A stretch of DNA of 64,000 bases. Source: an uncultured Gammaproteobacteria bacterium (GTDB lineage: Bacteria; Patescibacteriota; Patescibacteriia; Magasanikbacterales; GWA2-37-8). Positions 1-17,140 of this stretch are shown here, in pieces. A program made the translations under genes and the position numbers. The stretch lies in assembly GCA_964465205.1 (NCBI GenBank), contig CAYXJO010000004.1:9671-73670 (forward strand). The letters are read 5' to 3'. Position 1 is the first letter of the stretch. Each line of letters begins with the position of its first letter. Under the pieces are notes generated by a model. It saw only the letters and a list, made by a program, of their open reading frames with translations. It was not told the DNA's origin and made no database searches.

Positions 1-2928
1 ACCGATCTACTACCACCCGAGACTGTGCGTTTTATGCAAGAAACATTTACCGGTTGGGAAAAAGCCGGATTGAGCGCAGAGGCAATTAAATCTTTTACCG
101 CCAATGGTTTGACTACAGAAGAAGTGGGGGAAATTAACAAAATTATCGCTGCGGCTGAAGGTAATTTGGGAGCGATGAAAGTGGTGAGTGAAACATTACA
201 ACACAATAATGGTGATATAAAATCGGTGGTAGATAATATGTTGGTGGGGACAGATAAGGGGCATAATAGCGTAACTGCACTGCTTGCCAAACAACTCGAG
301 ACAGATCCAGCCAAGTTTGGCTATCAGGGTGATCTGACCAATGCTAAAGCTGTGGATATTTGGGCCAAGGGTGTAGCGGCAAAAATTGCGGCGGAAAATG
401 GACTTATCGGAAAGGATGGAGCCTCTACCGGTATTGTTTATGATAAAAATCACGATAGTTTCGTGATGTTAACTCAAGATGGGCAAAATAAATTAGGGGT
501 GAAATTAGTGGGTAAAGAGGTTACTGTGGGTCCGAAGGTTGAAACTGTGGAATTACCCCAAGAGCCAGAGTTTAATATCGATATGAAAGGTAGCTCGTGG
601 GTGATGGAAGGTAAAAATTATGTGGTAACCTACGATATGGGCAATCATGGTCTACAAGCAGTATATGATAAGGATGGCGATCTGTCTGCGTTTAAGGTTG
701 GTGGGATCAAGATTACCACCGGGGAATTAGACTCTCTAAAAGAGGCAATAGCCAAAATACCAGCCGATCATAAAGGAAGTGGTACTTTTGCTAGTGCAGA
801 TAGCAAAGTGATGATAAATTTTTACGATAATGATAAAATGGGCAAGCCGTTTATTAGTTTAAAAGGCAGATCTATACCTTTGGAAGACGCTCAGAAGTTA
901 ATGGGAGAAATGGATTATATTAGTGAGGAAAATGACACATTTGATCCCAAGGCACAAGTGGGGATGTGGCACAATGTTGAAGTTAACAAAGGCATGCCAG
1001 CTACTGGTATGGCAGAATTTGATCCTACTTCAAAATTTACGGTAATGACCCGTGGCGTCGGTGGCACTCATGAAATGGTATATGTGAAAACTGGAGACGA
1101 GAATCATTATGGTAGTAATTTGATTTATAATAAAGATGGGGCACTAATTGGTTGGCAAGATAAAAATGATGGTGAAATGCATTTTTCGGATAATCCAGAT
1201 TCATTCAAAGGCATAGATGCATCTGATAAGAGTGTGGGTAAAATTAATACTGGTGCCGCGGTGGAGAAGAAAATTAATGCAGAACCAATTGCTGATACAA
1301 ATGAAAATGGGTCTGGCGGCGAGGAGGGCACAAATCAGGAAAATAATGTGAAACAAAGTAGTGAGGGTGTTAAGAATGAAGCAGAACCTATTAAACAAAA
1401 GCAGGAGGCCGATGTAAATGTTGCGGAAAATCAGACCGTTAAAATAGAAAATAACACCATGCTACACATAACTCCTGAGCAGAATGCAAAATTAGGATTG
1501 CTTTACCCAAAAGCAGAAAATATAAAAGTCAGCTCTTTAGTTAGCGAACATGATGGAGTGCGTCAAGTGAGATTTGTAGTGAATTATTCCGAAGATGGCA
1601 AATTTCGACCCGGAGTAATAAGTAAACCGTACAGTGGAGATATGAAAAAGGGATTTGATGATTTTTTGGATTCTAAAGGTGCTGGATCGGAAAAATTATC
1701 GGGAAGTGTAGCCGAGCGTCCCATCCCCAAGAGCCTAGATCATTTTATGACTAATAAAACAAGGGGCCATATTGATAAAGGTTTAATTGAGTTGTTGTAT
1801 CTAAGGAAAGAACTGGATCCGCAAAAACATTATAGCATAACCGAATTACCCCAACAGGACGGTGGTTTTAAAGTGATGATAGTTGACGATGAAGGTCGTC
1901 AGGTTTTTGCAGGTAAAGGCAAAAATCAAAGTGAGGTTATAATGGATATGTTGCATAGTCCTGTATCAGAAAACAATGTTGACGCGGCGCCTGTTCCCCT
2001 AACCAACGTTGATCATCATTTGGATAAGGGTTTTGAAATTCCAGATAGCGTACCCGACGATCAGATAGAATTTGTGCGAGCTCGGTATAATGAACATTTG
2101 GCAGCGATGAAAAATTTTGAGAATTTAAATTCCGATCAGGCTAACTTATATACTCCAGCCGCACTTCAGGAGTGGAGGGGTCATATGACTAGTGTTGTGC
2201 GCTTAGATTTGGAAATATTTAAGAAGATAGTGGCTCAAGGCGGTTCACATACAGCTGAGCGTTTAAAGATGCTCGAAAACGGAGGAGATGAATTAATCGA
2301 TAGTACTAAAGGAAGTTGGGATAATAGTATTAAATTGGGTAATCAGGATATTCATTTGCCCAAAAAATTGACTTTTTCTGAGCTTAGCCGCATTTTGAAC
2401 CAAGTTAGAGAGTTTGAGGTTAGGTATACTAGAAACACCATTGAAGACACAACTGATTCTATTGGTATTGCCAAACACAATATCTATAATGAGATTTGCG
2501 CGAAAATTGTTGCCAATGGAAAAACTGGTAATAAAATTTTTGAAGATTTGCTTGCTGTTAATAGTGGGGATGGTAAACTTGAGACAAAAATTCCAGGTGC
2601 ATTCTTGGACACAAAACTTAATGTAGGTGGTGTGGAGATAAAAATATCCACCAAAATGGATTTGGGGAAAGTAGGGAGTGTAATTTATAGCGCTGATTTG
2701 TTTTCTCATAAATCAGCGGAATTAGAGGAGTTAAGAATTGCCGCCAATTCCGGGGACGTTGCTAGTAGTGAAAAGTACAATTATTTGAAAGGAATTTTTG
2801 AAGAGAATCTGCAGTCATTTAAAAAAGCAGTTGAGGCTGGTAAGGGTGCGGAGTTTGAAAATAATAATGTACTAAACTATAGTTGGGGACCTAGTGTGTC
2901 AATAGAGTCTTTAAAGCACATAAAATAG
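1..2928 (+). CDS. Large hypothetical protein, 5'-truncated at the window edge (at least 975 aa). No signal peptide, TM segment or recognisable catalytic motif.
   Basis: The reading frame is open from base 1 through the listed M at 25 to the stop at 2928. Codon usage matches the surrounding low-GC genome. The gene is convergent with the 1945-aa gene and shares a bidirectional terminator with it. Confidence 0.6.
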   Translation, partial: TDLLPPETVRFMQETFTGWEKAGLSAEAIKSFTANGLTTEEVGEINKIIAAAEGNLGAMKVVSETLQHNNGDIKSVVDNMLVGTDKGHNSVTALLAKQLETDPAKFGYQGDLTNAKAVDIWAKGVAAKIAAENGLIGKDGASTGIVYDKNHDSFVMLTQDGQNKLGVKLVGKEVTVGPKVETVELPQEPEFNIDMKGSSWVMEGKNYVVTYDMGNHGLQAVYDKDGDLSAFKVGGIKITTGELDSLKEAIAKIPADHKGSGTFASADSKVMINFYDNDKMGKPFISLKGRSIPLEDAQKLMGEMDYISEENDTFDPKAQVGMWHNVEVNKGMPATGMAEFDPTSKFTVMTRGVGGTHEMVYVKTGDENHYGSNLIYNKDGALIGWQDKNDGEMHFSDNPDSFKGIDASDKSVGKINTGAAVEKKINAEPIADTNENGSGGEEGTNQENNVKQSSEGVKNEAEPIKQKQEADVNVAENQTVKIENNTMLHITPEQNAKLGLLYPKAENIKVSSLVSEHDGVRQVRFVVNYSEDGKFRPGVISKPYSGDMKKGFDDFLDSKGAGSEKLSGSVAERPIPKSLDHFMTNKTRGHIDKGLIELLYLRKELDPQKHYSITELPQQDGGFKVMIVDDEGRQVFAGKGKNQSEVIMDMLHSPVSENNVDAAPVPLTNVDHHLDKGFEIPDSVPDDQIEFVRARYNEHLAAMKNFENLNSDQANLYTPAALQEWRGHMTSVVRLDLEIFKKIVAQGGSHTAERLKMLENGGDELIDSTKGSWDNSIKLGNQDIHLPKKLTFSELSRILNQVREFEVRYTRNTIEDTTDSIGIAKHNIYNEICAKIVANGKTGNKIFEDLLAVNSGDGKLETKIPGAFLDTKLNVGGVEIKISTKMDLGKVGSVIYSADLFSHKSAELEELRIAANSGDVASSEKYNYLKGIFEENLQSFKKAVEAGKGAEFENNNVLNYSWGPSVSIESLKHIK

Positions 2929-2940
2929 TTGGTAAAATTA

Positions 2941-2973
2941 AAACACCCTCCGCTCGGAGGGTGTTTTTGTTTC
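2941..2973. terminator. Bidirectional intrinsic terminator between the convergent giant genes
   Basis: Hairpin CACCCTCC-GCTC-GGAGGGTG, with an A-run on the 5' side and TTTTTG on the 3' side. Confidence 0.6.
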
Positions 2974-2986
2974 GTGTATCAATATT

Positions 2987-5900
2987 CTATTTTCCACCAC
3001 CAGCTCGGACAACTTTTTTGGGAGCCGGAGCAGGGGTTGGTGCTGGTGCGGCTGTCTTCGCTTTTTGTTGTGAAGCAGGTTTGGTATCTGTTTTTGCATC
3101 CGGTTTGGCCACGGGTTTGGTGGTGGCTTTGGTAGCGGTCTTGGCTGTGGTCGCTTTCTTTTTTTCTGCCTGGGTTTCTTCCACAGTTAGTGCAGTTATC
3201 AAATCTTTTACAAAATTTCTTTTTTCGTCTACCAATTCATTAATCTCTTTAGCTTTAAATTTTGGGAACAGGCGAAAGATTATAGCTGCACTCATGGCAT
3301 CTTGTTCTGCGCCTGGAGTTGGTAATTTCTTTTCCGAATTTATCCACTCCACAATTTCGGCCACAAAATCCAACATAAAAGTTTTGTCCCATTTATCTTG
3401 GCTAATGCGATTTTCAATTATGGCGGATAATTTTTCGGCCATTTTTTCTTGGCCAGCCGGCGGTAAATTGGGGTGAGCCTCGGCTATGGCCTGCTGCATT
3501 TCTTTTTTAATCATTTTTTTGTCAGCCGGCAATAATTCCAAAGCCATGGCTGCTGCTAATTCTGGCGGCGGCGGGGGAGCATTTGGTGCTTCTGCGGCTG
3601 CGCCACCAGTATTTGGTGGATTGTGAGAAGGAATTTCTACTGCCGCTCCGGATTTGTCTGGTGGCGGGGGAGGATTGCCGGGAGAACCCTCGGGATTTGA
3701 CCCGGTCGGTTTTTTTTGCCCATCTTCTTCTTTTTTCATTTTATCTCCAGCTCCTGGTGGAGGAGTTTCGCCCTTGGGTGACTTTGGTGGTTTGTCACCA
3801 GATTTTTTGTCGTCTTTCTTTTTGTCTGGGTATTGTCCTGGTTCCAAAGGTTTGCGATCATTCATTGGCAATGGTATGAACCAAGGATTGTTTTCTGGTG
3901 GCGCGATAGAAATTTCGTCAACACCAATTTCGCGTGGGCGAAATACATAGTCGGTTATTTCTTTGGTTGCATTTGGCACTTCGCCACCTTTGCCTACCAT
4001 GGTAGCGAGTACATGAGCCTTGCCGTCCGAAGAAGAATTATAGACAATTTCCCAAGTCCAGCGAGCAGAACCGTCTTTGTTCATAAGAGTTTGACCCAAT
4101 GTGCCGGCTTTGTCTATAGCCAATTCACCGTTGGTCATCGGCACATCAAAACCATTGCCCGCATTAAAGTCGCCAGTAGTGGGGTCGTAAAAACGAATGT
4201 GGAAATTGCTGAAATCACCCTTGGCCAAATCCGCTTTCATGACATTGTACATGGTATCAATAGTGCCGTCGTAGTTTACTTTGCCATCACGCAACATATC
4301 GTTGATGCCTTTTTTGAAGCTGAATGTCCAATCTTTGCCACTGTCATTTAGCATGCCGCGCAATTCTTTGCCGTCGTGAATGTGACCGGAAGTTTTGAGT
4401 ACGGTACCAACATCGCGGTTTTCGTATTCGCAATGTATATGGCCGCTATTATCAGAGATATGTTCATGGCGATATACGTGGTGTAATGGTTCAATACGAT
4501 CCGGCACTTGATCAGGGCGTAGTTCACCTTTCATTACACTATCATGCAATCGCTCTCCTAATTTCAGTGCTTCGCCTGTTGTTCTGGGCGACAAATCCAT
4601 GTCATAATGATGCCCTGGCCCCATGGTATCGTGACTGGTAAGTTTGCCAGACCACGGATCCATGTTGTTGTGCCAAATACGCGGCGCGTTATTCATTTGG
4701 CCGCCTAATTTTTGTAATTCCGCGATTACAGCATCGTGGCCTTTGACAGTAATAGTGTGAGAAGTCATCCCCACATCCCAGCCAGCTTTGTCCATGAGTT
4801 GTATAGAATTCGGATTAATGGTAGCACCATCAGGATTGAGTTGAAAATTGCCCACGGTTTTATTATTTTCGTCGGTAATTAGCATTTCAAATCCGTTAGT
4901 CGGGGATTTGGGCGCAACATGCCAGCCGTGGGGAAGAGTGAATTTGGTATTGAGACCAGGCACTTGTACAGTATCTGGGGCCATGGCCGGACTAGCGACA
5001 TGTTCACCGGTTACTTCGGAGTGTAGATGATTACTTTCGAAAATTTTGAACCCTTTGTCACGCAATGCATCCAAGGTTTGTTGAGGCAAACCACCTTGGG
5101 GATCGGGTTTAATATGGTCCAAAATCACATTACCTTTTACATCCGCGAGTATATAAGTTCCAGTGGCTTTGTCTAGTCCTATTTTCAAGCTACTATCCAA
5201 CGCCATTTCAGTGTTGTTGGAAAGCAATACCCCCGGAGCGAAATTGGGTGGATAGCCAGCACCATCGGTTTTGAAATATTCGGTCATTTTGCCAATCCAA
5301 CTGTGATCGAAACTGTCGCGCATGGTGGTTACCGCACATTCGGCTACTGCACCAGCCGCGAAGCCTACTACCGCCCCCATTGCACCCGCTTTGACCATTT
5401 CTAAGCGTCGCCAGTTTTTGAAACGTGCATCAGTGTTTTCGATTTGAGTAGAAATATCGTCTATGGCTTTTTGGGTTTCGGCATGTAATACGTCAGGATT
5501 AATACCGTGTTGTTGTTCTATGCGTTTGAGTAGGATTTTAATTTGATTGATAGAAGCAATACGAGTATTTAGATTTTTGCCTTCTTCACGCGCGGCCGAG
5601 AATAAATCCACTTGCTTTTCAGATTCCACTGCCAAGGCGGCAAAAATTCTAGCTACATAAGCACGTTCTTCGGAATTAACTTGCCCAGCCGGCTGGCGTG
5701 ATAAATTATCCAAAAATGCCACCACTTCTTCGGTGTGTAGTTTGAGATAATCAAACTTGCGCATTTCTTTGGCTCGATCACCAACAGCTTCTTGACCCAG
5801 CGCCGAACGACGCATTTCCATGCCACGATCATATTCCACATCGCGTCCACGACGCAAAGCTCCCATTACACCACCCATTATTGAACCTACCACTGGTGCG

Positions 5901-8824
5901 GCTAGTAGTGCGCGCATCGACATGCTGGCAGCGCCTTTGGTTATGGCAGTGGCAGTGGCCGCCGCTCCGGCAGCCGCAAAGGTGATTGGGGAAGATAATA
6001 CTTTGCCCAGCACTGGTACACTTTGGGCTTTGTCCACCAATTTGGTAAACCAAGAACTTACAAACCGCGGTTTGGTTTCACGAATGTCGCGTTCTTTGAG
6101 GCCAAGTTGTATTTCCAAATTCATGATACCTTTCAAGTGGCCAAGAATAATTTCGCGATTTTCCGGTCCGTATTTTTTTTCCATTTCTTTGGTAGCATCC
6201 TCGACGTACTTTTTGTAACTTTCGGCCAATTGATAAAAATTATGTGCAAACAGCAAACCTTTGGCCTCTTCGTCGTTGGCATTGGTAAATTTGTAGCCTT
6301 TGCGTTTGATAATCGGCAATATTCTTTCTTCCACTGTGGCATCGAACAACTGGCGTGACATCAAATGCGCACCGCTAGCGTGATCGAAAATTAAATCAGC
6401 TAATTCAGCATTGACTTCGGCGTCGTTGATATATTCACCTTTTTCATTTTCTTCGGCCACTTCGGCGGCAAAGGTTTCTATGATATTATTCAGTACTTCA
6501 AAATGGCGAATTTCTTTGTCGCGGGTAATCGGTTTGCCTTCACTACGTGAAAGCAACGCCGCTTCGATTTCGGTCATGAGGTTTTTGTTTTTTTGGATTT
6601 CGTTTACTGATTCACGATAGAATTTATCCAAATATAATTTTTCACTCGGACGAATAAACATGGAGCTGCGCAATTGGCGCCCTACTTTTTTGGCGGTTTC
6701 CCATGGGTGGGTGACTGCCTCTTTGACACCATGGGCCAAACGACCAAAGAATCCGCGTTTGGGTTCTGGTGCCTGTGGTGGTTGAGCGTTGTTTGGATCA
6801 AGTCCGCGCATGTAGGCGTTGAGTTTTTCTTCGGCCTGCGACCAAGCCAAACGTTCTACTACTTTGGATACGTCGATAAGATACGCTCTGTTCGGCGGGC
6901 GAATTGGCTCTGGCTCTGGTATGCGGATCGGCTCTGGTTTGGGTTCTGGTGTTTCTGGTTTCGGTTCTTTTACTTTGTCATCATCTTCCGGCGGATTTTC
7001 CATAAAATTCAAATTTTCCGGTAAGACCGCCGTACTAATATTATCTTGTTCATCTTTGCCGAGTTTGCCATCTTCGCCTGGTTCATCTACACCCGGAACA
7101 CCTTTCTTTTTCTTGGGCAAAATTAATTCACGGCGTTTTTTGAGAGCACGTTCGGCCAGCAGCCAATTTTTCTCATCGTCACCGGTTTTGCGATGATCTT
7201 TGTGCACCAAGTATGCTTCGCGGCGTTTGCGCCACTCATCCCATTTATCGGTGGGTTCACTCGCGTTGGCATCAATTAATTTTATTACACTATCGATTTC
7301 TTTGGTGGCAGATTTGGTTTCGTCTTCAATTTTCGCGTCTAAATCCGCACTGTCCGCACCGGTGTCGGCTTTCATCTTGTCGAATTTTTGTTTGAGTTCA
7401 TCCACGGTTTGCTGGCGAATTTCTCTCAACGCTTCCAATAGATCGTCTACCGGAATACCTTCACGTCGGCAATTTTCGGAACCTTTGGATTCGCACACTT
7501 CGAATTTACCGTCATCAGTCTCGTCGCTTTCCAAATTTTCTTTGGCATCTTTCACAGCGGCTATTATCCACTTCAATCGTTCGGCGCCATCTGCTTTTTT
7601 ACCCATTTTATCCAAAGATTTTTTCAAAATACCCACCGCTTTGTCCACGGCTTGGAGTAATGATTCGCGCTCTGGCCCCTGCTCTTTGGCTTCGGCTTTG
7701 GCAGTTGGTTTGGCCTCTGGTTGAGGCATGTTTTCCGCCGCGTCATCTTGGGCGCTGGCATCCACCTTTTTTTTGTATTCGGCAATCATAGGTATTTTAC
7801 TTAAATATTTTTTATACATGTCAATATAATGGCCGCTCTTATCATCCGTGTTGCCATATCCACCAGCTTGGCTATCGTATTCGTAAGCCGGAGTGGTGAG
7901 ATCTTCCGCGCGAATCCAGTTTTCTTTGACGCCGTGCGAAGTCATCTTGGCTGCGTTGGATTCAATGCCGCCGATCCAGGCGCGCCCTTTTTTGTCGCGA
8001 CAAAAGACGTATGTTAAATTGTTATTTTTGGAAGGATAACATTCAAAGGTGATGGGCCCATACATTACCGATCCACCTTGCCAACTGTCGATCATTTTGC
8101 CAAAATCCGGTTCGTTGTTTTTGTCGTCGAAACCAATTTCACCTGGTGGTAATTTTTTCCCGTGGTTAGCCTTGGTCTCTTCGGGTGTGGCGGATTTGAC
8201 TTTAAAATTCCCGGGCAGATCTACAGGTTGAGAACTAACGTCGATTAGAAAAGAATGTCCTTTTTTGACAGCGTCATTATAGCGGGTGTCCAAATTGGCC
8301 GCTGTACCCATGAATACAAATTCAGCGTCGGGAATCGGTTTGATATTTTTATCATCCAAAGTCATTTCGGATAAAGCTTTTTGCATGGCGGCCGGCAACA
8401 TGATGGATTCTTCGCCGTATTCTTTGGAATACCAACCGGTGGCATAAGAGGCGAGTAGCCGCCACACGCCCTGAGAATTACTGCGCCAAAAAGAACGTGG
8501 CACCAAAGATCCACCTCGTTCGATAAATCCGGTTACCGCCGCGCGTCCACTACCGATATCGTATGGATGCGAAGATAGCCAGATATTTTGTCCACCCATT
8601 TCAATTTTATATTGGGGGAGGACGCCGTTTTTTTTGAAATCTTCCGGGGAAAGCATTTTGCCGTTATACTCGCTGGCACTGCCGGACAAGATAACTTTGT
8701 CCAGAAGTTTTTCGGCTTCGGTGTCGGGAACTTTTTCAATTTTAATTTTAAAACCAACTTGCGTAGGATTTTTCGCCTGATCTGGTGTTGAACGTTTAGT
8801 TTCGGCGTGGTTTTGTCCCGACAT
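2987..8824 (-). CDS. Giant 1945-aa multidomain protein with two Gly/Ala-rich TM hairpins, coiled-coil stretches, a His-rich region with a tandem SGHIH motif (M23-peptidase-like, uncertain), a poly-Pro linker and a Lys/Ala/Thr/Pro-rich C-terminal tail
   Basis: One uninterrupted minus-strand ORF. Hydrophobic Gly/Ala-rich segments encode VLGKVLSSPITFAAAGAAATATAITKGAASM (about nt 5830-5990) and MVKAGAMGAVVGFAAGAVAECAVTTM (about nt 5320-5400). The His-rich region at about nt 4380-4500 reads HHYDMD...SGHIHCEYENRD...SGHIHDGKE. A PPPPP run lies near nt 3600-3900. The C-terminal tail reads KKKATTAKTATKATTKPVAKPDAKTDTKPASQQKAKTAAPAPTPAPAPKK. Confidence 0.8.
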   Translation of the reverse strand: MSGQNHAETKRSTPDQAKNPTQVGFKIKIEKVPDTEAEKLLDKVILSGSASEYNGKMLSPEDFKKNGVLPQYKIEMGGQNIWLSSHPYDIGSGRAAVTGFIERGGSLVPRSFWRSNSQGVWRLLASYATGWYSKEYGEESIMLPAAMQKALSEMTLDDKNIKPIPDAEFVFMGTAANLDTRYNDAVKKGHSFLIDVSSQPVDLPGNFKVKSATPEETKANHGKKLPPGEIGFDDKNNEPDFGKMIDSWQGGSVMYGPITFECYPSKNNNLTYVFCRDKKGRAWIGGIESNAAKMTSHGVKENWIRAEDLTTPAYEYDSQAGGYGNTDDKSGHYIDMYKKYLSKIPMIAEYKKKVDASAQDDAAENMPQPEAKPTAKAEAKEQGPERESLLQAVDKAVGILKKSLDKMGKKADGAERLKWIIAAVKDAKENLESDETDDGKFEVCESKGSENCRREGIPVDDLLEALREIRQQTVDELKQKFDKMKADTGADSADLDAKIEDETKSATKEIDSVIKLIDANASEPTDKWDEWRKRREAYLVHKDHRKTGDDEKNWLLAERALKKRRELILPKKKKGVPGVDEPGEDGKLGKDEQDNISTAVLPENLNFMENPPEDDDKVKEPKPETPEPKPEPIRIPEPEPIRPPNRAYLIDVSKVVERLAWSQAEEKLNAYMRGLDPNNAQPPQAPEPKRGFFGRLAHGVKEAVTHPWETAKKVGRQLRSSMFIRPSEKLYLDKFYRESVNEIQKNKNLMTEIEAALLSRSEGKPITRDKEIRHFEVLNNIIETFAAEVAEENEKGEYINDAEVNAELADLIFDHASGAHLMSRQLFDATVEERILPIIKRKGYKFTNANDEEAKGLLFAHNFYQLAESYKKYVEDATKEMEKKYGPENREIILGHLKGIMNLEIQLGLKERDIRETKPRFVSSWFTKLVDKAQSVPVLGKVLSSPITFAAAGAAATATAITKGAASMSMRALLAAPVVGSIMGGVMGALRRGRDVEYDRGMEMRRSALGQEAVGDRAKEMRKFDYLKLHTEEVVAFLDNLSRQPAGQVNSEERAYVARIFAALAVESEKQVDLFSAAREEGKNLNTRIASINQIKILLKRIEQQHGINPDVLHAETQKAIDDISTQIENTDARFKNWRRLEMVKAGAMGAVVGFAAGAVAECAVTTMRDSFDHSWIGKMTEYFKTDGAGYPPNFAPGVLLSNNTEMALDSSLKIGLDKATGTYILADVKGNVILDHIKPDPQGGLPQQTLDALRDKGFKIFESNHLHSEVTGEHVASPAMAPDTVQVPGLNTKFTLPHGWHVAPKSPTNGFEMLITDENNKTVGNFQLNPDGATINPNSIQLMDKAGWDVGMTSHTITVKGHDAVIAELQKLGGQMNNAPRIWHNNMDPWSGKLTSHDTMGPGHHYDMDLSPRTTGEALKLGERLHDSVMKGELRPDQVPDRIEPLHHVYRHEHISDNSGHIHCEYENRDVGTVLKTSGHIHDGKELRGMLNDSGKDWTFSFKKGINDMLRDGKVNYDGTIDTMYNVMKADLAKGDFSNFHIRFYDPTTGDFNAGNGFDVPMTNGELAIDKAGTLGQTLMNKDGSARWTWEIVYNSSSDGKAHVLATMVGKGGEVPNATKEITDYVFRPREIGVDEISIAPPENNPWFIPLPMNDRKPLEPGQYPDKKKDDKKSGDKPPKSPKGETPPPGAGDKMKKEEDGQKKPTGSNPEGSPGNPPPPPDKSGAAVEIPSHNPPNTGGAAAEAPNAPPPPPELAAAMALELLPADKKMIKKEMQQAIAEAHPNLPPAGQEKMAEKLSAIIENRISQDKWDKTFMLDFVAEIVEWINSEKKLPTPGAEQDAMSAAIIFRLFPKFKAKEINELVDEKRNFVKDLITALTVEETQAEKKKATTAKTATKATTKPVAKPDAKTDTKPASQQKAKTAAPAPTPAPAPKKVVRAGGGK

Positions 8825-8849: not shown

Positions 8850-9182
8850 TTATTCTTTTTTGGCACCGCCTACATATATAGAGCGGAACTCCATCATGGC
8901 GCGAGCGGTGACTTCGGGTAAATTGGGTATGTTAGCGATAAAAAAGTTGTGAACTGCTTCTTGGCCCGGGTTGGACTGCATGAGGGCGTCGAATAGCTCG
9001 GCGCTGTCATTGGGCAGGGCCTGGAGCAGGGAAGTCATAATATGATTCTGCATGCGACCGTATAAATCTTGCTTCATGGCGGCTTTGAGGTCGGCATTTA
9101 CCTCGGCACCGTGGGCTTCTTCGATTATTTTGTTCAAAAACAGATCGATTTCGGCGGGCATTTCCGGGGCTGAGTTGGGCAT
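8850..9182 (-). CDS. Hypothetical 110-aa protein sitting immediately upstream of the giant gene, likely co-transcribed with it
   Basis: ORF with host-like codon usage and a 25-nt gap to the start of the giant gene. No recognisable domain. Confidence 0.5.
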   Translation of the reverse strand: MPNSAPEMPAEIDLFLNKIIEEAHGAEVNADLKAAMKQDLYGRMQNHIMTSLLQALPNDSAELFDALMQSNPGQEAVHNFFIANIPNLPEVTARAMMEFRSIYVGGAKKE

Positions 9183-9667
9183 ATTATATATATAATGTAT
9201 AAAGCCAGCGTGGGCTGGTCCGCCGGGTGGCGGATTGTTTATACTTTATCGTATCACAAAATCCGCTTTTTTTCAAATTTGGCATAAAATGAATTTTGGC
9301 TAATATTAGCTAAATACGGCGGGGATGTGGATAACTTTATGTTCACCCCCTTGACAAAAGTCCAAAATCGTGATATAGTATTCTGTTATGAAATAATCGA
9401 GCAGCTTTTGAGAGAGGAGCAGCCCGATTGTGTCACTGAATACCCTCTCGCCCAAAGAGGTTTTTTGTTAAGTAATGGTTTACCTATCAGTTCGTTACAA
9501 TCTAGTAGTGAAGACTCTGGCACAAAGTTGTATATATCATATATATGGTAATCAGCTTTGTGCTAGAGTGTAGAATGTCCAGTGCGCGGAATAATCCGTA
9601 GCGCTTGGCAAAGATGTCCCCAAGGCGTGCCGCACAGCGGCCCAATTGAACCAAAAAGGAGCCTACC

Positions 9668-10513
9668 ATGTCCGACAAGAACCAGACCCCCGAAAACGGA
9701 ACCGAAACCAACCAGACCCCCGAAATCCCCAAGGACAAGAAGGAGAATCCCATGCCCGAACCGAAGAAGACCCTGCCCCAGAAGTTCGACTACAACACCG
9801 GCCGCGAGCCCAAACATGCCGACGGCAGCAACCACGGCGCGCTGTGGTTCGTCGCCATCGCGGCGCTCGTGCTCGCCATCGGCGGCCTGGCGCTCGGAAG
9901 CGTGAACTACAGCGACATCGGCGGCTTGACGACCCTCATCAAGGGCCACAGCACCGACATCGCCAACTTGGTCAAAGAGAACGACGCCCGCAAAGCCGAG
10001 AACGACGACATGTATCTCAACCACGTCATGCCGGCCGAGGACGCCATCAGCGGCCTCAAGGTTCGCATGAACACCGCCGAAGGCACCATCAACGCCCACG
10101 GCAAGGCCATCACGGACGCCGAGAAGAACATCGTGTGGCTCACCGGCCAGAACAAGAAGGTCAACAAGGCGCTCTCGGAAAATGCCGAAACCGTCAAGAA
10201 TCAGGGCAAGACCATCGGTCAGTACGGCCAGAATTTCGAAAAGGTCAACGGCACGCTCGTCAAGCACGACGACCGCCTCGACTCGCTCGAAAAACGCCCC
10301 ATGACCAACAAGGCCAATCCCTTGTCCACCGGCGGCCCCACGGTCCTGTGGTGCGCGGGCAGCCTGAACAACCGGTTCGGCTGTCTGAACGACAAGCCCG
10401 TCGAGAAAGAGGTCGACGCGATCAAGCTCGCCTGCGGACCCGGCGGCTCGAAGAACGTCGCGAAGTTCGAAAACGGAACTTACGGCGATTTCGCCCCGGT
10501 CAACTGCAACTAG
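9668..10513 (+). CDS. Membrane-anchored coiled-coil protein (281 aa) with a single N-terminal TM helix and a 4-Cys C-terminal domain. First gene of the GC-rich island.
   Basis: AAGGAG RBS 8 nt upstream of the ATG. TM segment ALWFVAIAALVLAIGGLALGSV. Heptad-like region rich in K/E/N. Cys residues in the last 60 aa. GC is about 62%. Confidence 0.7.
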   Translation: MSDKNQTPENGTETNQTPEIPKDKKENPMPEPKKTLPQKFDYNTGREPKHADGSNHGALWFVAIAALVLAIGGLALGSVNYSDIGGLTTLIKGHSTDIANLVKENDARKAENDDMYLNHVMPAEDAISGLKVRMNTAEGTINAHGKAITDAEKNIVWLTGQNKKVNKALSENAETVKNQGKTIGQYGQNFEKVNGTLVKHDDRLDSLEKRPMTNKANPLSTGGPTVLWCAGSLNNRFGCLNDKPVEKEVDAIKLACGPGGSKNVAKFENGTYGDFAPVNCN

Positions 10514-10777
10514 GCCACCTCACTACTACACATGCTCTTTCGGCGTGGGACCCTCCGGGGTTCCACGCCACTCTTACATTGTTTATGATAGTCCCTTTTT
10601 AGGGACATATCATAGACAGCGTAGGAGTTAAGTCCTTTACATTTTAGAAGTCGTTAAGACCTTTCTGAGAGTTCCTGGTACAAAGAGAGGAACTATTTTA
10701 GTTTCTGTCTCTGTACCATGAACTTATTACCCACGATGTTCGTCACTTTCCTGCCGCAATGGCAAAGGAGGCTCGCA

Positions 10778-11401
10778 ATGAAACACCTATCCCTGTCTTT
10801 GGCGTTTATCGCCGCCCTGCTCATCTTCGGTTCCTTGGCCAACGCCTCGGAAGCCGACAACCCGCCCGTTGGTTGGCAGAACATTCCTCAGCTCCCGGAA
10901 AACAAGGAAGCCTGCAAGCTCGTCCCGGCCCTCACCCTCTTCGGAGGCGGCGGCTATGTGACCGGCGTCGAGAATCGCGGCAAACAACACGGCGAAGGCT
11001 TCGGTCTGGCCGTGGGATCGCTCGCGTTCAGCTTCCGCGCCACCCAGCACTTCATCGTCACTCCGCAACTTGACTTCGGTCTGGGCGGAGCGAAGAATGG
11101 TCGCTGGACCAGCTCGCTTGGCGTTCTGTTCGGAGGCCGTACGTATGGCGACGGGTTTCGTTTGTCCGCCGGGTTTTCCTGGGTGACTTACAACAACCTG
11201 GCCATCAAGGACGGCGGCTGGTGGTTGAACGGCGTGGGATTCCCCGTCAAGATGGACTTTAAACCGTGGGACAACAAGTACCCGGTTTTCTTCTCCATCA
11301 TGGCGACCCCGTTCGTCGGTATCAACCGCGGCAAGCACACCGGCGGCGGCCTGGAATTCCTGGGCGCTGGCATCGGCGGCGACTTGCCCTCGCCATTCTG
11401 A
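10778..11401 (+). CDS. Secreted OMP-like small beta-barrel protein (208 aa, C-terminal Phe)
   Basis: AGGAGG RBS and a signal peptide MKHLSLSLAFIAALLIFGSLANA with an A-N-A cleavage site. Gly/aromatic-rich amphipathic strands. The protein ends ...DLPSPF. The ORF-track start at 10718 is an upstream in-frame extension. Confidence 0.5.
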   Translation: MKHLSLSLAFIAALLIFGSLANASEADNPPVGWQNIPQLPENKEACKLVPALTLFGGGGYVTGVENRGKQHGEGFGLAVGSLAFSFRATQHFIVTPQLDFGLGGAKNGRWTSSLGVLFGGRTYGDGFRLSAGFSWVTYNNLAIKDGGWWLNGVGFPVKMDFKPWDNKYPVFFSIMATPFVGINRGKHTGGGLEFLGAGIGGDLPSPF

Positions 11402-11421
11402 TCTCAACGACTTCTCAACCC

Positions 11422-11460
11422 AGGTGGGCCGAGCTTCAGCTCGGTCCCACCCATTTTTAG
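11422..11460 (+). terminator. Intrinsic terminator after the OMP-like gene
   Basis: Hairpin GTGGGCCGAGC-TTCA-GCTCGGTCCCAC followed by CCATTTTT. Confidence 0.6.
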
Positions 11461-11681
11461 TGGTCACAATGATTTGTGAATACTAAAAAAGACATAAATT
11501 TATTTGTGTCTTGAGTTCATTAAAATTCGGATTAGAAAAACAAACACTTGGTACAAAGTTGATTGTCTCTTTGGTAATTAGCTTTGTGCCAAGTGATAAA
11601 TTCGGCGAGGTACAAAGCGTAGTGCTTTGTCCGCCGGTGAAAATTGAAAGCGTGTTCTCTACCACAAAGGAGTTTGAAGCC

Positions 11682-13145
11682 ATGAAACACACGATGCTGC
11701 TGGTTCTGATTGCCCTGATCGCGGCCCTGTTCACCATCGGTTGTTCGGCGGCGGGCGAAGACGCCCCCCAGAACATCATCGACGGCGACTCGACCGTGGA
11801 CGGCGACACCAACGAGGCCACCGAGGCCGACGGCGACTCCCAGGCCGAAGACGGGGATACCACGGAAGCGACCGAAGAGGAAAGCGAAAGCGAAACCTCG
11901 GACGGCGACTCGACCGTGGACGGCGACTCGAACGAAGGCGAACAGCCCGAGACCGAAGAAGCCGACACCGACACCACCCCCTACATCTGCCCCGGCACGA
12001 AGTTCGTGACCGGGCCGGCCGTGACCTGGCTGCAGAGCTGGGCCACCGGCGAGGAAAATCCCATCGACGCCGCCGGCACGTCTTGCACGTGTCCGGAAAG
12101 CGGCTGCGGACAGCAGCCCTGCGCGTGGTTGAACCCGCCGCGGAACTCGCGCATCACCACCTCGAACGGCACCTGCACCACCGAAGGCGACGACATCACC
12201 CTGTGCTACTACATGTCGCCGAGCCCGTCTCAGGAAACGTATGCGCCTTTCGTTACCCCCCAGGGTACGAAAGTCTGCACGCATGACGGACTTTACAGCG
12301 GCGCCCACGTCGAAGTCGACGGCGACACCGATACGGTGCTCCCCGACGGCGACTCGAACGAAGGCGAAGAAGAGGTGGACAACACCGAGACCGCCGACGG
12401 GGACATCGTTCCCGACGGGGACTCGGATACCACCGAGGCCGAACAAGAAGCCGACACGGAAGTCCCGGTGAACGAATGCCTGAGCAATGCGAATTGCGAC
12501 GACGGCCAAGCGTGCACCTATGACGAGTGCGTGTTTCTCACTTCGGGCAACCGCTGCGTTCGTTCGAACGAGGCCAACGGATCGCATTGCGACCCTGGCG
12601 TCAGCTTCGACGACGGATACTGCTACGAGGGTTCCTGCCACGGTTTCAACAACTGCGAGTCGAACCTCGACTGCCCCATGATTGACAACTGCAACTCGCA
12701 GCTCTGCATCATGGGCGAGTGTTACCCCAGCGAATCGGCGCCCCGTCCGGGCATTACCTGCGACGACGACAACCCCGATACCTACAGCGACGTTTGCAAC
12801 AGCAACGGCGTCTGCGAGGGAACTCCCAACGGGCAACAGACCGGTTTCGGGACTTGGGCCCTGCTGTTCGGCATGACCAATTGCCCCTCCTGGACGGTCG
12901 GCATCGACCATACCGGCAATGAGTCCGGCCCGAATGCTGAACACCAGGAAGACAGCGTCTGCTATTCCCGCACTGTGGGCGACAATCAAGCCCATTCGAT
13001 CTGGGGCCACATTGACCCCTGGGGTACGCAGCCTCCGGCCGGAATGAAGGTGCTCTGCACCACAAAGTACGGTACCCAATATTGGACCCCATGGGTTCAG
13101 GGTAACGGCGGCTGGTGGTTCGTCTGTTCCAACGACGGCCACTAA
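11682..13145 (+). CDS. Acidic Cys-rich secreted lipoprotein (487 aa), paralog of the next gene
   Basis: AGGAG RBS. Lipoprotein signal MKHTMLLVLIALIAALFTIGC (lipobox TIGC). The segment after the lipobox Cys is a DGD/TE/EA acidic low-complexity linker. The C-terminal half has many Cys in CxDG.xC patterns. The ORF-track start at 11511 is an in-frame upstream extension through the leader. Confidence 0.75.
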   Translation: MKHTMLLVLIALIAALFTIGCSAAGEDAPQNIIDGDSTVDGDTNEATEADGDSQAEDGDTTEATEEESESETSDGDSTVDGDSNEGEQPETEEADTDTTPYICPGTKFVTGPAVTWLQSWATGEENPIDAAGTSCTCPESGCGQQPCAWLNPPRNSRITTSNGTCTTEGDDITLCYYMSPSPSQETYAPFVTPQGTKVCTHDGLYSGAHVEVDGDTDTVLPDGDSNEGEEEVDNTETADGDIVPDGDSDTTEAEQEADTEVPVNECLSNANCDDGQACTYDECVFLTSGNRCVRSNEANGSHCDPGVSFDDGYCYEGSCHGFNNCESNLDCPMIDNCNSQLCIMGECYPSESAPRPGITCDDDNPDTYSDVCNSNGVCEGTPNGQQTGFGTWALLFGMTNCPSWTVGIDHTGNESGPNAEHQEDSVCYSRTVGDNQAHSIWGHIDPWGTQPPAGMKVLCTTKYGTQYWTPWVQGNGGWWFVCSNDGH

Positions 13146-13493
13146 ACCACCCCACCCGCACGGCGGGCTAATCCGATCACATAACCTAGGGCGGCAGGCT
13201 TCGGCTTGCCCCCTAGGCCTTTTACTTGAGATCATTATTCGTAGTGCTCTCAAGAAAAAGTTGTTTACCAACTATAGAAATTTCCTTACCTGCGGGCGCT
13301 TGTCCTTGTGCGTGAGGTTCGGGAGATTTTTGTGGTGGATAGGCAACTATCCAACATGATCCACTGTGTCTCTCTCCCAGTGGATTTTTGTTTCAACGGA
13401 GAGTTGCCCTTTGAAAATTGAGGATTAGAAAAACAACAACACACACGTCCACGTCTCGTTCCCATCTTTGCATGAAGAAAGGAGAAAATTCTC

Positions 13494-17069: not shown

Positions 17070-17078
17070 TCCTCAACG

Positions 17079-17140
17079 CCCCCTAGGGGGCACAACCGGC
17101 TCGGGGGGGGGAGAAATCTCCCCCCGGCCAAATATTTTTC
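17079..17140 (+). terminator. GC-rich palindromes and terminator at the end of the island
   Basis: Perfect palindrome CCCCCTAGGGGG, followed by hairpin GGGGGGGGAGAAATCTCCCCCC and a T-run. Confidence 0.5.

What the first reader, a model, noticed from the sequence alone, without database searches (positions are those of the whole stretch)
2987..8824. 1945-aa giant protein with a mosaic architecture suggestive of a cell-envelope-attacking effector or tape-measure-like protein
It is a single ORF of 5.8 kb. It contains two Gly/Ala-rich hydrophobic hairpins (GxxxG-like zippers), long charged helical regions, a His-rich module with two tandem SGHIH motifs resembling the M23/LytM HxH zinc site (SGHIHCEYE / SGHIHDGKE, preceded by HHYDMD), a PPPPP-rich linker, and a histone-H1-like K/A/T/P tail encoded by quasi-repetitive DNA. 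Giant proteins of this type in small-genome symbionts are candidate host-interaction or cell-wall-remodelling factors. Phage tape-measure proteins share the combination of Gly-rich TM hairpins and M23 domains, but no other phage genes are nearby.
Basis: partly seen in the sequence, partly recalled or inferred. Interest (0 to 1): 0.7.

Follow-up and report, generated by a model that had tools for sequence, protein, structure and literature searches.

The report
Giant modular membrane protein, uncharacterised family
The 1945-residue gene is real, but it is neither a cell-wall peptidase nor a phage tape measure: it belongs to a widespread, undescribed family of giant membrane-associated proteins of ultra-small (Patescibacteria/CPR) bacteria that is always encoded next to a small DUF5663 protein and here carries a conserved domain with no match among solved structures.

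Summary
The ORF (2987-8824, minus strand, 1945 aa) is real. The M23/tape-measure reading fails. No Pfam, NCBIfam, PHROG, PADLOC or PDB match exists, even at E<=10 for the His-rich part. HHYDMD and the first SGHIH lie in an 83-aa insertion that the closest relative (48% identical) lacks. The second SGHIH aligns there to TDNIY. No relatives occur in phage, plasmid or viral collections.

What is there is a two-gene operon, DUF5663 (8850-9182) plus the giant gene. The giant protein has four kinds of parts:
- An N-terminal ~330-aa domain, confidently modelled (pLDDT 87), with no PDB fold match. Its family has 1188 clusters.
- A conserved helical core.
- A conserved module of three Gly/Ala-rich hydrophobic helices around a helical bundle.
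- A fast-evolving C-terminal 780 aa.

DUF5663 sits within 500 nt of the giant gene in 15 of 16 core-bearing loci with sequence available on the relevant side, and in the 16th it lies 1.8 kb away on the same strand. It is never next to short domain-only relatives (0/49).

Best reading (confidence 0.4): an envelope-spanning anchor with a conserved cytoplasmic side and a variable surface side. The main rival is an exported membrane-inserting effector with DUF5663 as chaperone. Function is inferred, not shown.

The parts
2987..8824 (-). Giant ORF, 1945 aa, ATG start, stop at 2987-2989
   Evidence: Identical protein P0001 is in the public collection. The start is supported by a collinear relative in L065 that begins MPGKK....
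8850..9182 (-). DUF5663 gene (110 aa), 25 nt upstream on the same strand; the conserved partner
   Evidence: Pfam PF18908 E 1.5e-5, above its cutoff. Homologous small ORFs lie next to the giant gene in L001, L004 (x2), L006, L008, L014, L017, L020, L055, L065-L069, L072 and L073, and 1.8 kb away in L070.
9248..9276 (-). Promoter-like site upstream of the DUF5663 gene (consensus match only)
   Evidence: TTGAAA-17-TACGAT with TG. This is not evidence of function.
2940..2967 (.). 12-bp GC-rich hairpin flanked by A and T runs, between the two convergent genes; probable bidirectional terminator and end of the operon
7769..8752 (-). aa 25-352: conserved alpha/beta domain of unknown function. Motifs: RSFWRSNSQGVWRLL, WYSKEYGEES, FMGTA, FCRDKKGRAWIGGIE, DLTTPAYEY, GGYGN, YIDMYKKYLSKIP.
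7115..7672 (-). aa 385-570: charged helical 'module A', which sits at the extreme N-terminus of several relatives
   Evidence: BLASTP to the N-termini of P0002, P0076, P0048, P0049 and P0003. 29% mean identity and 80% aligned in the core subfamily.
6892..7027 (-). aa ~600-644: Pro/Glu/Lys-rich linker (PKPETPEPKPEPIRIPEPEPIRPP)
   Evidence: 19 Pro per 100 aa
6020..6891 (-). aa 645-935: conserved helical core preceding the hydrophobic module
   Evidence: HMM and BLAST homology to P0002, P0024, P0076 and L065-L073. 39% mean identity, among the best-conserved parts.
5855..6013 (-). aa 938-990: Gly/Ala-rich hydrophobic hairpin (h1 938-961, h2 968-990)
   Evidence: Kyte-Doolittle peaks 1.3-1.9. Conserved motif NPxxxG...P..G...G...RR.
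5393..5854 (-). aa 991-1144: basic, helical bundle between h2 and h3 (RRGRDVEYDR..., VDLF, TDARFKNWRR); predicted cytoplasmic
   Evidence: The only confident part of the second AF2 model, pLDDT 75-92. 5-6 K/R after h2 and 4-6 before h3 in all 10 family members. Alignment.
5324..5392 (-). aa 1145-1167: third Gly/Ala-rich hydrophobic helix (h3), the end of a long helix
   Evidence: 40% mean identity in the family.
3845..5323 (-). aa 1168-1660: divergent region after h3, predicted to lie outside the cell. Ends in the conserved DGKAHVLATMVGKG ... NPWFIPLPMNDRKPLE block.
   Evidence: Only ~21% identity to relatives. No hit in a direct homologue search, but collinear with P0002+ORF2 (=L067), P0024, P0076 and L065. 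AF2 pLDDT 25-56.
4397..4645 (-). aa 1394-1476: lineage-specific 83-aa insertion holding HHYDMD and the first SGHIH. The second SGHIH (aa 1479-1483) lies just after it.
   Evidence: Absent from the closest relative L065. 9% aligned and 7% identity in the family. No Pfam or PDB match.
3554..3844 (-). aa 1661-1757: Lys/Pro/Gly-rich low-complexity linker with two PPPPP runs
   Evidence: Variable in relatives.
3170..3553 (-). aa 1758-1885: C-terminal helical domain
   Evidence: Aligned with L065 within a 31%-identical segment. No significant Pfam hit.
2990..3169 (-). aa 1886-1945: K/A/T/P-rich basic tail, unique to this protein
   Evidence: Absent from L065 and the other relatives. No tandem DNA repeat.

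Best explanation
The locus is a chromosomal two-gene operon: DUF5663 (110 aa) followed by a giant modular protein. It belongs to a Patescibacteria-wide family that has not been described.

Proposed mechanism. The giant protein is held in the cell membrane by a conserved module of three Gly/Ala-rich (glycine-zipper-like) helices. Its first ~935 residues stay in the cytoplasm. These comprise the conserved ~330-aa domain with no solved-structure match, charged helical modules and the conserved helical core. The ~150-aa basic helical bundle between helices 2 and 3 is also cytoplasmic. The last ~780 residues are outside the cell. They comprise a fast-evolving globular region with a lineage-specific His-rich insertion, Pro-rich linkers that could span the wall, a helical domain and a Lys-rich tail that could stick to anionic wall or host-surface polymers.

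The protein would thus work as an envelope-spanning tether or scaffold. It would couple a conserved cytoplasmic side to a variable, lineage-specific surface side, plausibly at the contact with the host cell. DUF5663 would be its dedicated partner for assembly, chaperoning or regulation.

Shown: the ORF, the domain map, the homologies, the conserved gene pair, and the absence of any peptidase, phage or defence signature.
Inferred: the topology, the surface exposure, the role of DUF5663, and any role in host contact.
For: - The ORF and its features are real.
- The family is spread across Patescibacteria: Berkel-, Yanofsky-, Dojka-, Sacchari-, Pacei-, Nomura-, Buchanan-, Roizman- and Peribacteria.
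- The three-helix module and helical core are conserved: HMM E 1e-12 to 1e-115 in L001, L004b, L008, L018, L020 and L065-L071, and weaker in L017 at 5e-4.
- Charge distribution fits a cytoplasmic h2-h3 loop with the C-terminus outside. There are 5-6 K/R after h2, 4-6 before h3, and only 1-2 after h3 in all 10 members.
- AF2 places h2 and h3 as the ends of long helices flanking a confident helical bundle.
- Conservation is high on the predicted cytoplasmic side (31-40% identity in the helical core, hairpin, bundle and h3; 29% in module A) and low on the predicted outside (<=21%). The His segment is an insertion.
- DUF5663 lies within 500 nt of the giant gene in 15 of 16 core-bearing loci with sequence on the relevant side: 6/6 from the genome-contig and earlier look-ups, 7 of 8 from a scan seeded on the core alone, plus the window and the P0024 contig. 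In L070 it is 1.8 kb away on the same strand. It is next to 0 of 49 short domain-only relatives.
- The operon is bounded by a promoter-like site and a hairpin terminator.
- The surroundings are chromosomal cell-envelope genes: Mur ligases, PBPs, Wzy_C and glycosyltransferases.
Against: - There is no experimental datum and no true TM predictor was available. The hydrophobic helices are weak (Kyte-Doolittle 1.1-1.9).
- Topology paradox. The same conserved ~330-aa domain lies N-terminal of the three-helix module here and in P0021, P0004 and P0012. It lies C-terminal of the module in P0003, P0005, P0022, P0049, P0056, P0057, P0076 and P0116. In two of those it is directly preceded by another enzyme domain, a protein kinase in P0005 and a GT9 glycosyltransferase in P0003, and both domains need cytoplasmic nucleotides.
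- Short family members have no signal peptide, and no fourth hydrophobic segment was found. A static three-pass anchor cannot place the domain on one side in all of them.
- The outside part could not be modelled (pLDDT 25-56).
- The role of DUF5663 is pure inference. It has no PDB relative and no literature.
Confidence: 0.4

Rival explanations
1. Exported, membrane-inserting effector. The protein is kept soluble in the producer, with DUF5663 shielding its weakly hydrophobic glycine-zipper helices. It is exported by a non-Sec route, most plausibly the Patescibacteria type IV secretion system. It then inserts its three-helix module into the host-cell membrane and places the flanking domains on the host side: the conserved ~330-aa domain here, and kinase or GT9 domains in relatives.
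For: - It would resolve the topology paradox, because domain order relative to the module is free.
- The helices are only weakly hydrophobic. From general knowledge, this is a known property of membrane proteins exported by T3SS and T4SS.
- The small adjacent partner is tied specifically to proteins carrying the hydrophobic module: 15 of 16 loci against 0 of 49. From general knowledge, this is analogous to Eag chaperones of T6SS prePAAR effectors.
- Kinase, GT9 and zinc-ribbon domains occur in relatives.
- T4SS pilin genes (PF18895) lie within 10 kb of the giant gene in L001/L067, L068, L020 and the P0024 contig. P0006 fuses a pilin-like polytopic N-terminus to the conserved domain, a weak hit at E 0.004.
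- The Patescibacteria T4SS lacks relaxase and coupling protein and is proposed to export proteins. No substrate is named in the passages read (PMC10633639; PMC12102498).
Against: - No T4SS gene or pilin-like ORF is in this 64-kb window.
- Pilin adjacency is seen in only about 4 of ~17 independent giant loci, and its chance expectation was not computed.
- The family-wide positive-inside charge pattern and the conserved-inside, variable-outside pattern fit a resident membrane protein at least as well.
- Export of 1100-3000-aa proteins through a Gram-positive-type T4SS is unprecedented, to my knowledge.
- DUF5663 shows no similarity to any known chaperone.
Confidence: 0.25
2. Wholly cytoplasmic, membrane-peripheral scaffold. 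The Gly/Ala-rich segments form re-entrant or monotopic hairpins, or mediate oligomerisation. All domains stay in the cytoplasm. The protein would be a cytoskeleton-like organiser under the membrane, comparable in spirit to the Pro-rich, coiled-coil HMW proteins of the Mycoplasma attachment organelle.
For: - It would put the conserved domain, kinases, GT9 and zinc ribbons in the cytoplasm in every architecture.
- h1 is short and weakly hydrophobic, and h2 has a central Pro as in re-entrant hairpins.
- There are long charged helical and Pro-rich stretches.
Against: - h3 is an uncharged ~20-residue helix that continues a long helix out of the bundle.
- The charge drop after h3 is conserved.
- The rapid divergence, insertions and low-complexity linkers after h3 are more typical of exposed regions.
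Confidence: 0.13
3. One reading: a cell-wall-attacking effector or phage tape-measure-like protein whose His-rich module is an M23/LytM zinc peptidase.
For: - The strings HYDMD (HxxxD-like) and SGHIH (HxH-like) exist at aa 1405-1483.
- The best local alignment to lysostaphin pairs TSGHIHDGKE with TAPHLHFQRM.
- Gly-rich hydrophobic helices also occur in tape measure proteins (general knowledge).
Against: - That alignment scores at chance level (z 0.0 and -0.3, control 48).
- No Peptidase_M23, SLT or tape-measure HMM hit. No M23 chain in PDB sequence searches.
- The motifs lie in or next to an 83-aa insertion absent from the closest relative. The histidines are replaced there (TDNIY) and in P0002, P0024 and P0076.
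- Spacing and predicted secondary structure (helices between the motifs) do not fit the M23 beta fold. That model is of low confidence.
- No relatives in phage, plasmid or viral collections, and no phage genes in any of the contexts examined.
Confidence: 0.02
4. Non-functional or artefactual ORF (pseudogene, assembly chimera, or fusion of two genes by error).
For: - A high-GC island that may be foreign or chimeric begins 850 nt upstream.
- In L001 the homologous gene is split into two ORFs.
Against: - The ORF has 1945 codons without a stop, and its GC (0.42-0.47) is close to the window background of ~0.40-0.45.
- It is collinear over almost its whole length with the independent relative L065.
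- The L001 split is absent from the otherwise identical L067.
- All invariant residues of the N-terminal domain are kept.
Confidence: 0.02

Closest known systems
   Same: Short strings resembling HxxxD and HxH in a His-rich stretch. A cell-envelope context is plausible.
   Different: No HMM or sequence similarity. The motifs are not conserved and lie partly in a lineage-specific insertion. There are two SGHIH copies 19 residues apart rather than one HxH. HxxxD to HxH is ~55 residues, against about 80 in LytM (general knowledge). The sequence between the motifs is predicted helical, not beta (low confidence).
Phage tape measure proteins
   Same: Long, largely helical, with Gly-rich hydrophobic segments. 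Some carry lytic domains.
   Different: No tape-measure Pfam or PHROG hit. No phage neighbours. No relatives in 50,697 phage genomes or IMG/VR. It is a chromosomal gene pair conserved across a whole bacterial radiation.
T6SS prePAAR effectors with Eag (DUF1795) chaperones (general knowledge; functional analogy only)
   Same: A large effector with glycine-zipper-like transmembrane helices, encoded next to a small dedicated protein that co-occurs specifically with those helices.
   Different: No PAAR, Rhs or DUF1795 hit. DUF5663 looks helical and is unrelated to DUF1795. Its structure was not modelled. I know of no T6SS in Patescibacteria (not checked). The chaperone role is untested.
Extended VirB6/TraG-type giant T4SS membrane proteins and the Patescibacteria T4SS (PMC12102498, PMC10633639)
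   Same: Giant membrane proteins of host-dependent bacteria. Several relatives lie beside T4SS pilin clusters. One relative has a pilin-like polytopic N-terminus.
   Different: The window protein has no VirB6/TrbL or other T4SS HMM hit, has only three hydrophobic helices, and has no T4SS gene within 64 kb. Term searches of the two T4SS papers found no mention of large or giant proteins.
Giant proteins of Omnitrophota and other ultra-small bacteria (West-Roberts et al., bioRxiv 10.1101/2023.11.21.568195)
   Same: Very large, multi-domain, membrane-associated proteins with few annotated domains, in small episymbiotic or predatory bacteria. The conserved ~330-aa domain also occurs inside ORFs of at least 7000 aa in an Omnitrophica-labelled MAG (L026).
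   Different: Those proteins are described as >30,000 aa, with many TM regions and SecA-DEAD domains, next to T2SS genes (abstract). None of that is seen here.
Chlamydial Inc proteins and Mycoplasma HMW cytadherence proteins (general knowledge; analogies only)
   Same: Inc: a bilobed hydrophobic hairpin flanked by coiled coils. HMW: Pro-rich, acidic, coiled-coil giants of a minimal-genome bacterium's attachment structure.
   Different: No sequence or fold relation was detected. There is an extra third helix and a conserved bundle. The partner gene DUF5663 has no counterpart.

Membership tests
Peptidase_M23 (PF01551) | Significant match to the family HMM | tested here: not met
   No hit for the whole protein at E<=0.1. 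No hit for aa 1378-1551 alone at E<=10. NCBIfam gives none.
Peptidase_M23 (PF01551) | HxxxD and HxH zinc ligands conserved in homologues | tested here: not met
   HHYDMD and the first SGHIH lie in an insertion (aa 1394-1476) missing from L065. The second SGHIH aligns to TDNIY. The equivalent positions in P0002, P0024 and P0076 are non-His. SGHIH occurs in 0 of 10 relatives.
Peptidase_M23 (PF01551) | LytM-type beta fold | tested here: inconclusive
Peptidase_M23 (PF01551) | Sequence similarity to solved M23 enzymes | tested here: not met
   No M23 chain in PDB sequence searches at E<=10.
Phage tape measure protein | Match to tape-measure HMMs (Pfam, PHROGs) | tested here: not met
   The only PHROG match is a non-significant E 0.05 hit to a family of unknown function.
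Phage tape measure protein | Located in a tail-gene module or prophage, with relatives in phage genomes | tested here: not met
   Neighbours are housekeeping and cell-envelope genes. tblastn against phages, plasmids and IMG/VR gives no match.
Lytic transglycosylase (SLT) | Match to the family HMM | tested here: not met
Known anti-phage defence proteins (PADLOC-DB) | Match to any model | tested here: not met
T4SS components (VirB2/3/4/6/8, TrbL, T4SS_pilin) | HMM match in the protein, or T4SS genes in the same locus | tested here: not met
   No such Pfam hit in the protein or in the 29 window ORFs scanned. No pilin-like ORF in the window. Relatives, but not this locus, lie beside pilin clusters.
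DUF5663-linked giant glycine-zipper proteins (provisional family defined here) | Conserved helical core plus three-helix Gly/Ala-rich module | tested here: met
   Locally built HMMs: core E 1.7e-291 (the window protein is a seed). Independent members score 1e-146 to 1e-290. Alignment.
DUF5663-linked giant glycine-zipper proteins (provisional family defined here) | DUF5663 gene directly adjacent | tested here: met
   8850-9182, same strand, 25 nt upstream; PF18908 above its cutoff. 32% identical to the L001 partner, E 6e-19.
Conserved ~330-aa domain family (unnamed; not in Pfam) | Profile match with the invariant residues (S115, S117, R122, K134, G173-T174, D277, W283, G285, W303, T311-P312, E315-Y316, Y333, D335, Y350) | tested here: met
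   438 bits, E 1.9e-126 against the family profile (the protein is one of 21 seeds). The invariant columns include the window residues.
Conserved ~330-aa domain family (unnamed; not in Pfam) | Relation to a solved fold | tested here: not met

The most novel reading that the evidence does not exclude
The DUF5663 + giant-protein pair is a new kind of epibiont-to-host delivery device. DUF5663 chaperones the glycine-zipper helices in the producer. The giant protein leaves through the relaxase-less Patescibacteria T4SS, for which no substrate is named in the passages read. The three-helix module inserts into the host membrane. The swappable flanking modules then act in the host: the conserved domain with no solved-structure match here, and kinase or GT9 domains in relatives. 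The free order of domains around the module would be the signature of this mode of action.
Probability: 0.15. Interest if true: 0.85.

Novelty: categorically new. Interest (0 to 1): 0.6.

Why it matters
Patescibacteria make up a large share of bacterial diversity and live on other cells. The proteins that build the contact with the host are largely unknown, and no substrate of their essential T4SS is named in the passages I read (PMC10633639).

This locus gives a concrete, conserved and testable module:
- A small DUF5663 protein that is next to nearly every giant protein carrying a three-helix glycine-zipper module.
- A ~330-aa domain, confidently modelled, with more than 1000 sequence clusters, no Pfam entry and no solved structural relative.
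- Short soluble versions of that domain in Saccharibacteria, the one class with many cultured members and genetic tools.

If the family proves to be an envelope tether or an exported membrane-inserting effector, it would name a new component of the episymbiotic interface. It would also give DUF5663 a function.

The negative result matters too. The M23-like histidine strings are a lineage-specific insertion, so the protein should not be annotated as a peptidase or tape measure.

Tried and rejected
- M23 peptidase, SLT and tape measure. Rejected by Pfam, NCBIfam, PHROG and PDB searches, by chance-level alignment to lysostaphin and LytM, and by comparison with relatives.
- Phage or plasmid origin. 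No relatives in INPHARED, PLSDB or IMG/VR.
- Defence system. No PADLOC hit.
- Repetitive DNA behind the K/A/T/P tail. TRF finds none, and there is only one imperfect 20-nt pair.
- Internal protein repeats after h3. They are suggested by eye and by overlapping BLAST segments against L065, but a self-BLAST found none. Left open.
- Homologue search with the ectodomain alone found nothing. A search with core alignment A2 found nothing, probably because the candidate list was saturated (a wasted search).
- DUF5663 against PDB: no significant hit. Literature: no paper mentions it.
- Term searches of two T4SS papers and the abstract of the giant-gene preprint gave no mention of this family.


Full report
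**The observation.**
The window holds one uninterrupted ORF at 2987..8824 on the minus strand (ATG start, 1945 aa). The overlapping plus-strand ORFs are ordinary shadows. Its GC (0.42-0.47) is close to the window background of about 0.40-0.45.

- Charged helical stretches.
- A His-rich stretch with HHYDMD at aa 1405 and SGHIH at aa 1460 and 1479.
- PPPPP at aa 1718 and 1750.
- A K/A/T/P-rich tail.

Two details are wrong. There is one Gly/Ala-rich hydrophobic hairpin (aa 938-961 and 968-990) plus one single segment (aa 1145-1167), not two hairpins. The tail is not encoded by repetitive DNA.

A promoter-like site lies upstream of that gene. A 12-bp hairpin terminator (2940-2967) lies between the giant gene and the convergent ORF 25-2928. 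Together they bound a two-gene operon.

**The M23 / tape-measure reading.**
- The whole protein gives no Pfam or NCBIfam hit at E<=0.1 and no PADLOC hit at E<=0.01. Its only PHROG match is a non-significant one (E 0.05) to a family of unknown function.
- The isolated His-rich segment gives no Pfam hit even at E<=10. It matches no M23 chain among PDB sequences.
The two enzymes score z 48 against each other.

The comparative test is the strongest. The closest relative is L065, 48% identical and collinear over aa 352-1438. It lacks aa 1394-1476 altogether, which is the stretch holding HHYDMD and the first SGHIH. The second SGHIH aligns there to TDNIY. In P0002, P0024 and P0076 the equivalent block reads FYMNKDASGNVVVDAS, MQYDQDDKGRVIMDAS and WHVWDKGRKNVSIDVY, without the histidines. 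SGHIH occurs in none of ten relatives.

No relative of any part of the protein exists in 50,697 phage genomes, 72,556 plasmids or IMG/VR. The gene sits among chromosomal cell-envelope and housekeeping genes, here and in relatives. The peptidase and tape-measure readings are therefore rejected.

**What the protein is made of.**

*(a) aa 25-352: the conserved N-terminal domain.*
- It is 35-44% identical to the same domain in more than 20 giant proteins of 1100-3365 aa, where it can be N-terminal, internal or C-terminal.
- A profile finds 1188 cluster representatives (E<=1e-3; 566 at E<=1e-30) in proteins of 300 to 5186 aa.
- With only 21 sequences, AF2 gives a confident model (pLDDT 86.6, pTM 0.85) of two beta-meander sub-domains with helices.
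- Foldseek against viral models finds only three uncharacterised Klosneuvirinae proteins (E 7e-10 to 2e-7, TM 0.43-0.48).
- In representative genomes the domain is spread across Patescibacteria. It also occurs inside ORFs of at least 7000 aa in MAGs labelled Omnitrophica and Planctomycetales.
- Short forms of 350-750 aa, common in Saccharibacteria and often in tandem, have no signal peptide.

*(b) aa 385-570 and 645-935: helical modules.* These are shared with P0002, P0024, P0076 and nine metagenome loci.

*(c) aa 938-1167: the hydrophobic module.*
- It is a conserved module of three Gly/Ala-rich helices around a basic ~150-aa helical bundle. Its motif is NPxxxG...RRxxDLxYDR...VDL...QDxxFxxYR..KAGxxGxxxG.
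- It is recognisable in P0003, P0005, P0022, P0049, P0056, P0057, P0116 and others.
- It is the only confidently modelled part of the second AF2 job. There h2 and h3 are the ends of long helices that flank the bundle.

*(d) aa 1168-1945: the variable C-terminal part.*
- It is fast-evolving, at <=21% identity to relatives against 31-40% for the helical core and the three-helix module.
- It is still collinear with relatives, and ends its globular part in a conserved DGKAHVLATMVGKG...IPLP..RKPLE block.
- It is followed by a Pro/Lys-rich linker, a helical domain and a tail unique to this protein.
- In L001 the homologous gene appears split into two ORFs. The otherwise identical L067 has one 1528-aa ORF. 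The single long ORF is therefore the native state.

**The conserved gene pair.**
A DUF5663 ORF lies beside the giant gene in many loci:
- The window.
- L001, L004 (two pairs), L006, L008, L014, L017, L020 and L055.
- The P0024 contig.

Among ORFs of at least 1100 aa with both flanks available, 9 of 12 have DUF5663 within 500 nt. A tenth pair is in L020, where only one flank is available. All six ORFs with a detectable three-helix module and an upstream flank have it. None of 49 short domain-only ORFs do.

A reciprocal test used loci fetched from metagenomes with the core alone. All eight with an upstream flank have a DUF5663 ORF upstream. Seven lie within about 200 nt. In L070 the ORF is 1.8 kb away, possibly because the start was mis-called.

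DUF5663 is therefore tied to the giant, module-bearing proteins and not to the ~330-aa domain. It has no PDB relative and appears in no paper of the library.

**How it most likely works.**
Charge counts are the same in all ten aligned family members: 5-6 K/R just after h2, 4-6 just before h3, and only 1-2 after h3. Together with the AF2 geometry, this puts the h2-h3 bundle and the N-terminal 935 residues in the cytoplasm and the last ~780 residues outside.

The conservation pattern agrees. The inside is conserved. The outside is variable, tolerates insertions and is rich in linkers.

My best reading (confidence 0.4) is an envelope-spanning tether or scaffold. Its conserved cytoplasmic part, here including the N-terminal domain, is coupled to a lineage-specific surface part, with DUF5663 as a dedicated partner. 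The topology, the surface exposure and any role in host contact are inferences.

**The main unexplained fact and the rival it favours.**
The same conserved domain lies before the three-helix module in this protein and in P0021, P0004 and P0012. It lies after the module in P0003, P0005, P0022, P0049, P0056, P0057, P0076 and P0116. In P0005 it is preceded by a protein kinase and in P0003 by a GT9 glycosyltransferase. No fourth hydrophobic segment exists in these proteins.

A static three-pass anchor cannot keep the domain on one side of the membrane in all of them. The hydrophobic helices are also weak (Kyte-Doolittle 1.1-1.9).

This fits an alternative (0.25). The proteins would be exported and would insert into a target membrane, with DUF5663 shielding the helices beforehand. 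From general knowledge, this is analogous to Eag chaperones of T6SS prePAAR effectors.

Supporting hints:
- T4SS pilin clusters lie within 10 kb of the giant gene in L001/L067, L068, L020 and the P0024 contig.
- One relative has a pilin-like N-terminus.
- The Patescibacteria T4SS lacks relaxase and coupling protein and is proposed to export proteins (PMC10633639; PMC12102498).

Against it: there is no T4SS gene in this 64-kb window. Only about 4 of ~17 independent loci show the association, with no background rate computed.

A third possibility (0.13) is a wholly cytoplasmic, membrane-peripheral scaffold with re-entrant hairpins.

**Comparison with known families, and novelty.**
Every membership test against a described family failed: M23, SLT, tape measure, T4SS components, defence proteins and solved folds. 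The resemblances that remain are analogies of mechanism only. They are to prePAAR/Eag pairs, extended VirB6 proteins, Inc proteins, HMW proteins and Omnitrophota giant proteins.

The family itself is abundant in public sequence data but unnamed. Its ~330-aa domain has no Pfam model. I therefore rate it as lying outside the known kinds. Two caveats apply: function is unknown, and AFDB and InterPro resources beyond Pfam could not be consulted.

Interest is moderate to good (0.6). A giant hypothetical protein in a CPR genome does not surprise by itself. The conserved DUF5663 pairing, the confidently modelled domain with no solved-structure match, and the domain-order paradox give concrete handles on the episymbiotic envelope. 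Short homologues exist in the genetically tractable Saccharibacteria.

Noticed in passing
window 9650-17100: An island of four plus-strand genes (9668-10513, 10718-11401, 11511-13145, 13494-17069) has GC 0.58-0.66, against about 0.40-0.45 elsewhere. Two encode lipoprotein-like proteins with acidic DGD(S/T) repeats followed by Cys-rich CxDxNxCTxDxC repeats (Pfam Dicty_CTDC, 1.8e-18). The island is either horizontally acquired or an assembly chimera, and it lies directly upstream of the DUF5663 operon.
   Followed up: partly
window 25-2928 (+): A 967-aa ORF convergent with the giant gene has no hit in Pfam, NCBIfam, PHROGs or PADLOC. It has a strong purine skew (GC skew 0.27, AT skew 0.15). It may continue beyond the window start.
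   Followed up: partly
model of window aa 1-375 (7700-8824): The only structural neighbours of the conserved N-terminal domain are three uncharacterised proteins of giant viruses (Indivirus, Hokovirus, Klosneuvirus; Foldseek E 7e-10 to 2e-7, TM 0.43-0.48). This is an unexpected link between CPR bacteria and Klosneuvirinae.
   Followed up: no
L025, L026, L021, L032, L038, L056: The same ~330-aa domain sits inside ORFs of at least 3600-7000 aa that run off the fetched loci. The MAGs are labelled Omnitrophica, Planctomycetales or Micrarchaeota. The labels of several 'binchicken' MAGs (for example Gammaproteobacteria) look unreliable.
   Followed up: no
L040, L047, L051, L059; L036, L045, L046, L048, L058, L060: Saccharibacteria carry short (500-620 aa) soluble versions of the domain, often as tandem paralogues. 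They share a conserved helical N-terminal region (RRILAYMTG..F.NW...FP.P.DF). Several lie 3-7 kb from T4SS pilin clusters; one L048 pilin was confirmed as PF18895.
   Followed up: partly
L065 1024-5808: In the closest relative of the window protein, the N-terminal domain is truncated to its first half and has lost the invariant SNSQG motif (RSFWCDDADKMWKLL). The domain therefore seems dispensable or decaying in this subfamily.
   Followed up: partly
L001 1336-5874 vs L067 4064-8650: The homologous giant gene is split into 1192-aa and 313-aa ORFs in one metagenome contig, but is a single 1528-aa ORF with identical residues in another. This is a sequencing error or a recent pseudogenisation.
   Followed up: yes
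L020 792-4748: Upstream of a DUF5663/giant pair lies a 494-aa secreted protein ending in a pilin-like hairpin. It is followed by three small pilins, a polytopic HExxH membrane protein, and a 136-aa ORF not scanned here. A 126-aa protein with a 23S_rRNA_IVP Pfam hit also lies near the pilin genes on the P0024 contig.
   Followed up: no
window 17390-18787 and 52557-54401: There are two Wzy_C (O-antigen ligase-like) genes, one fused to a NUDIX domain. They lie amid many glycosyltransferase, Mur ligase, PBP and D-Ala-D-Ala carboxypeptidase genes, so the window is dense in cell-envelope functions.
   Followed up: no
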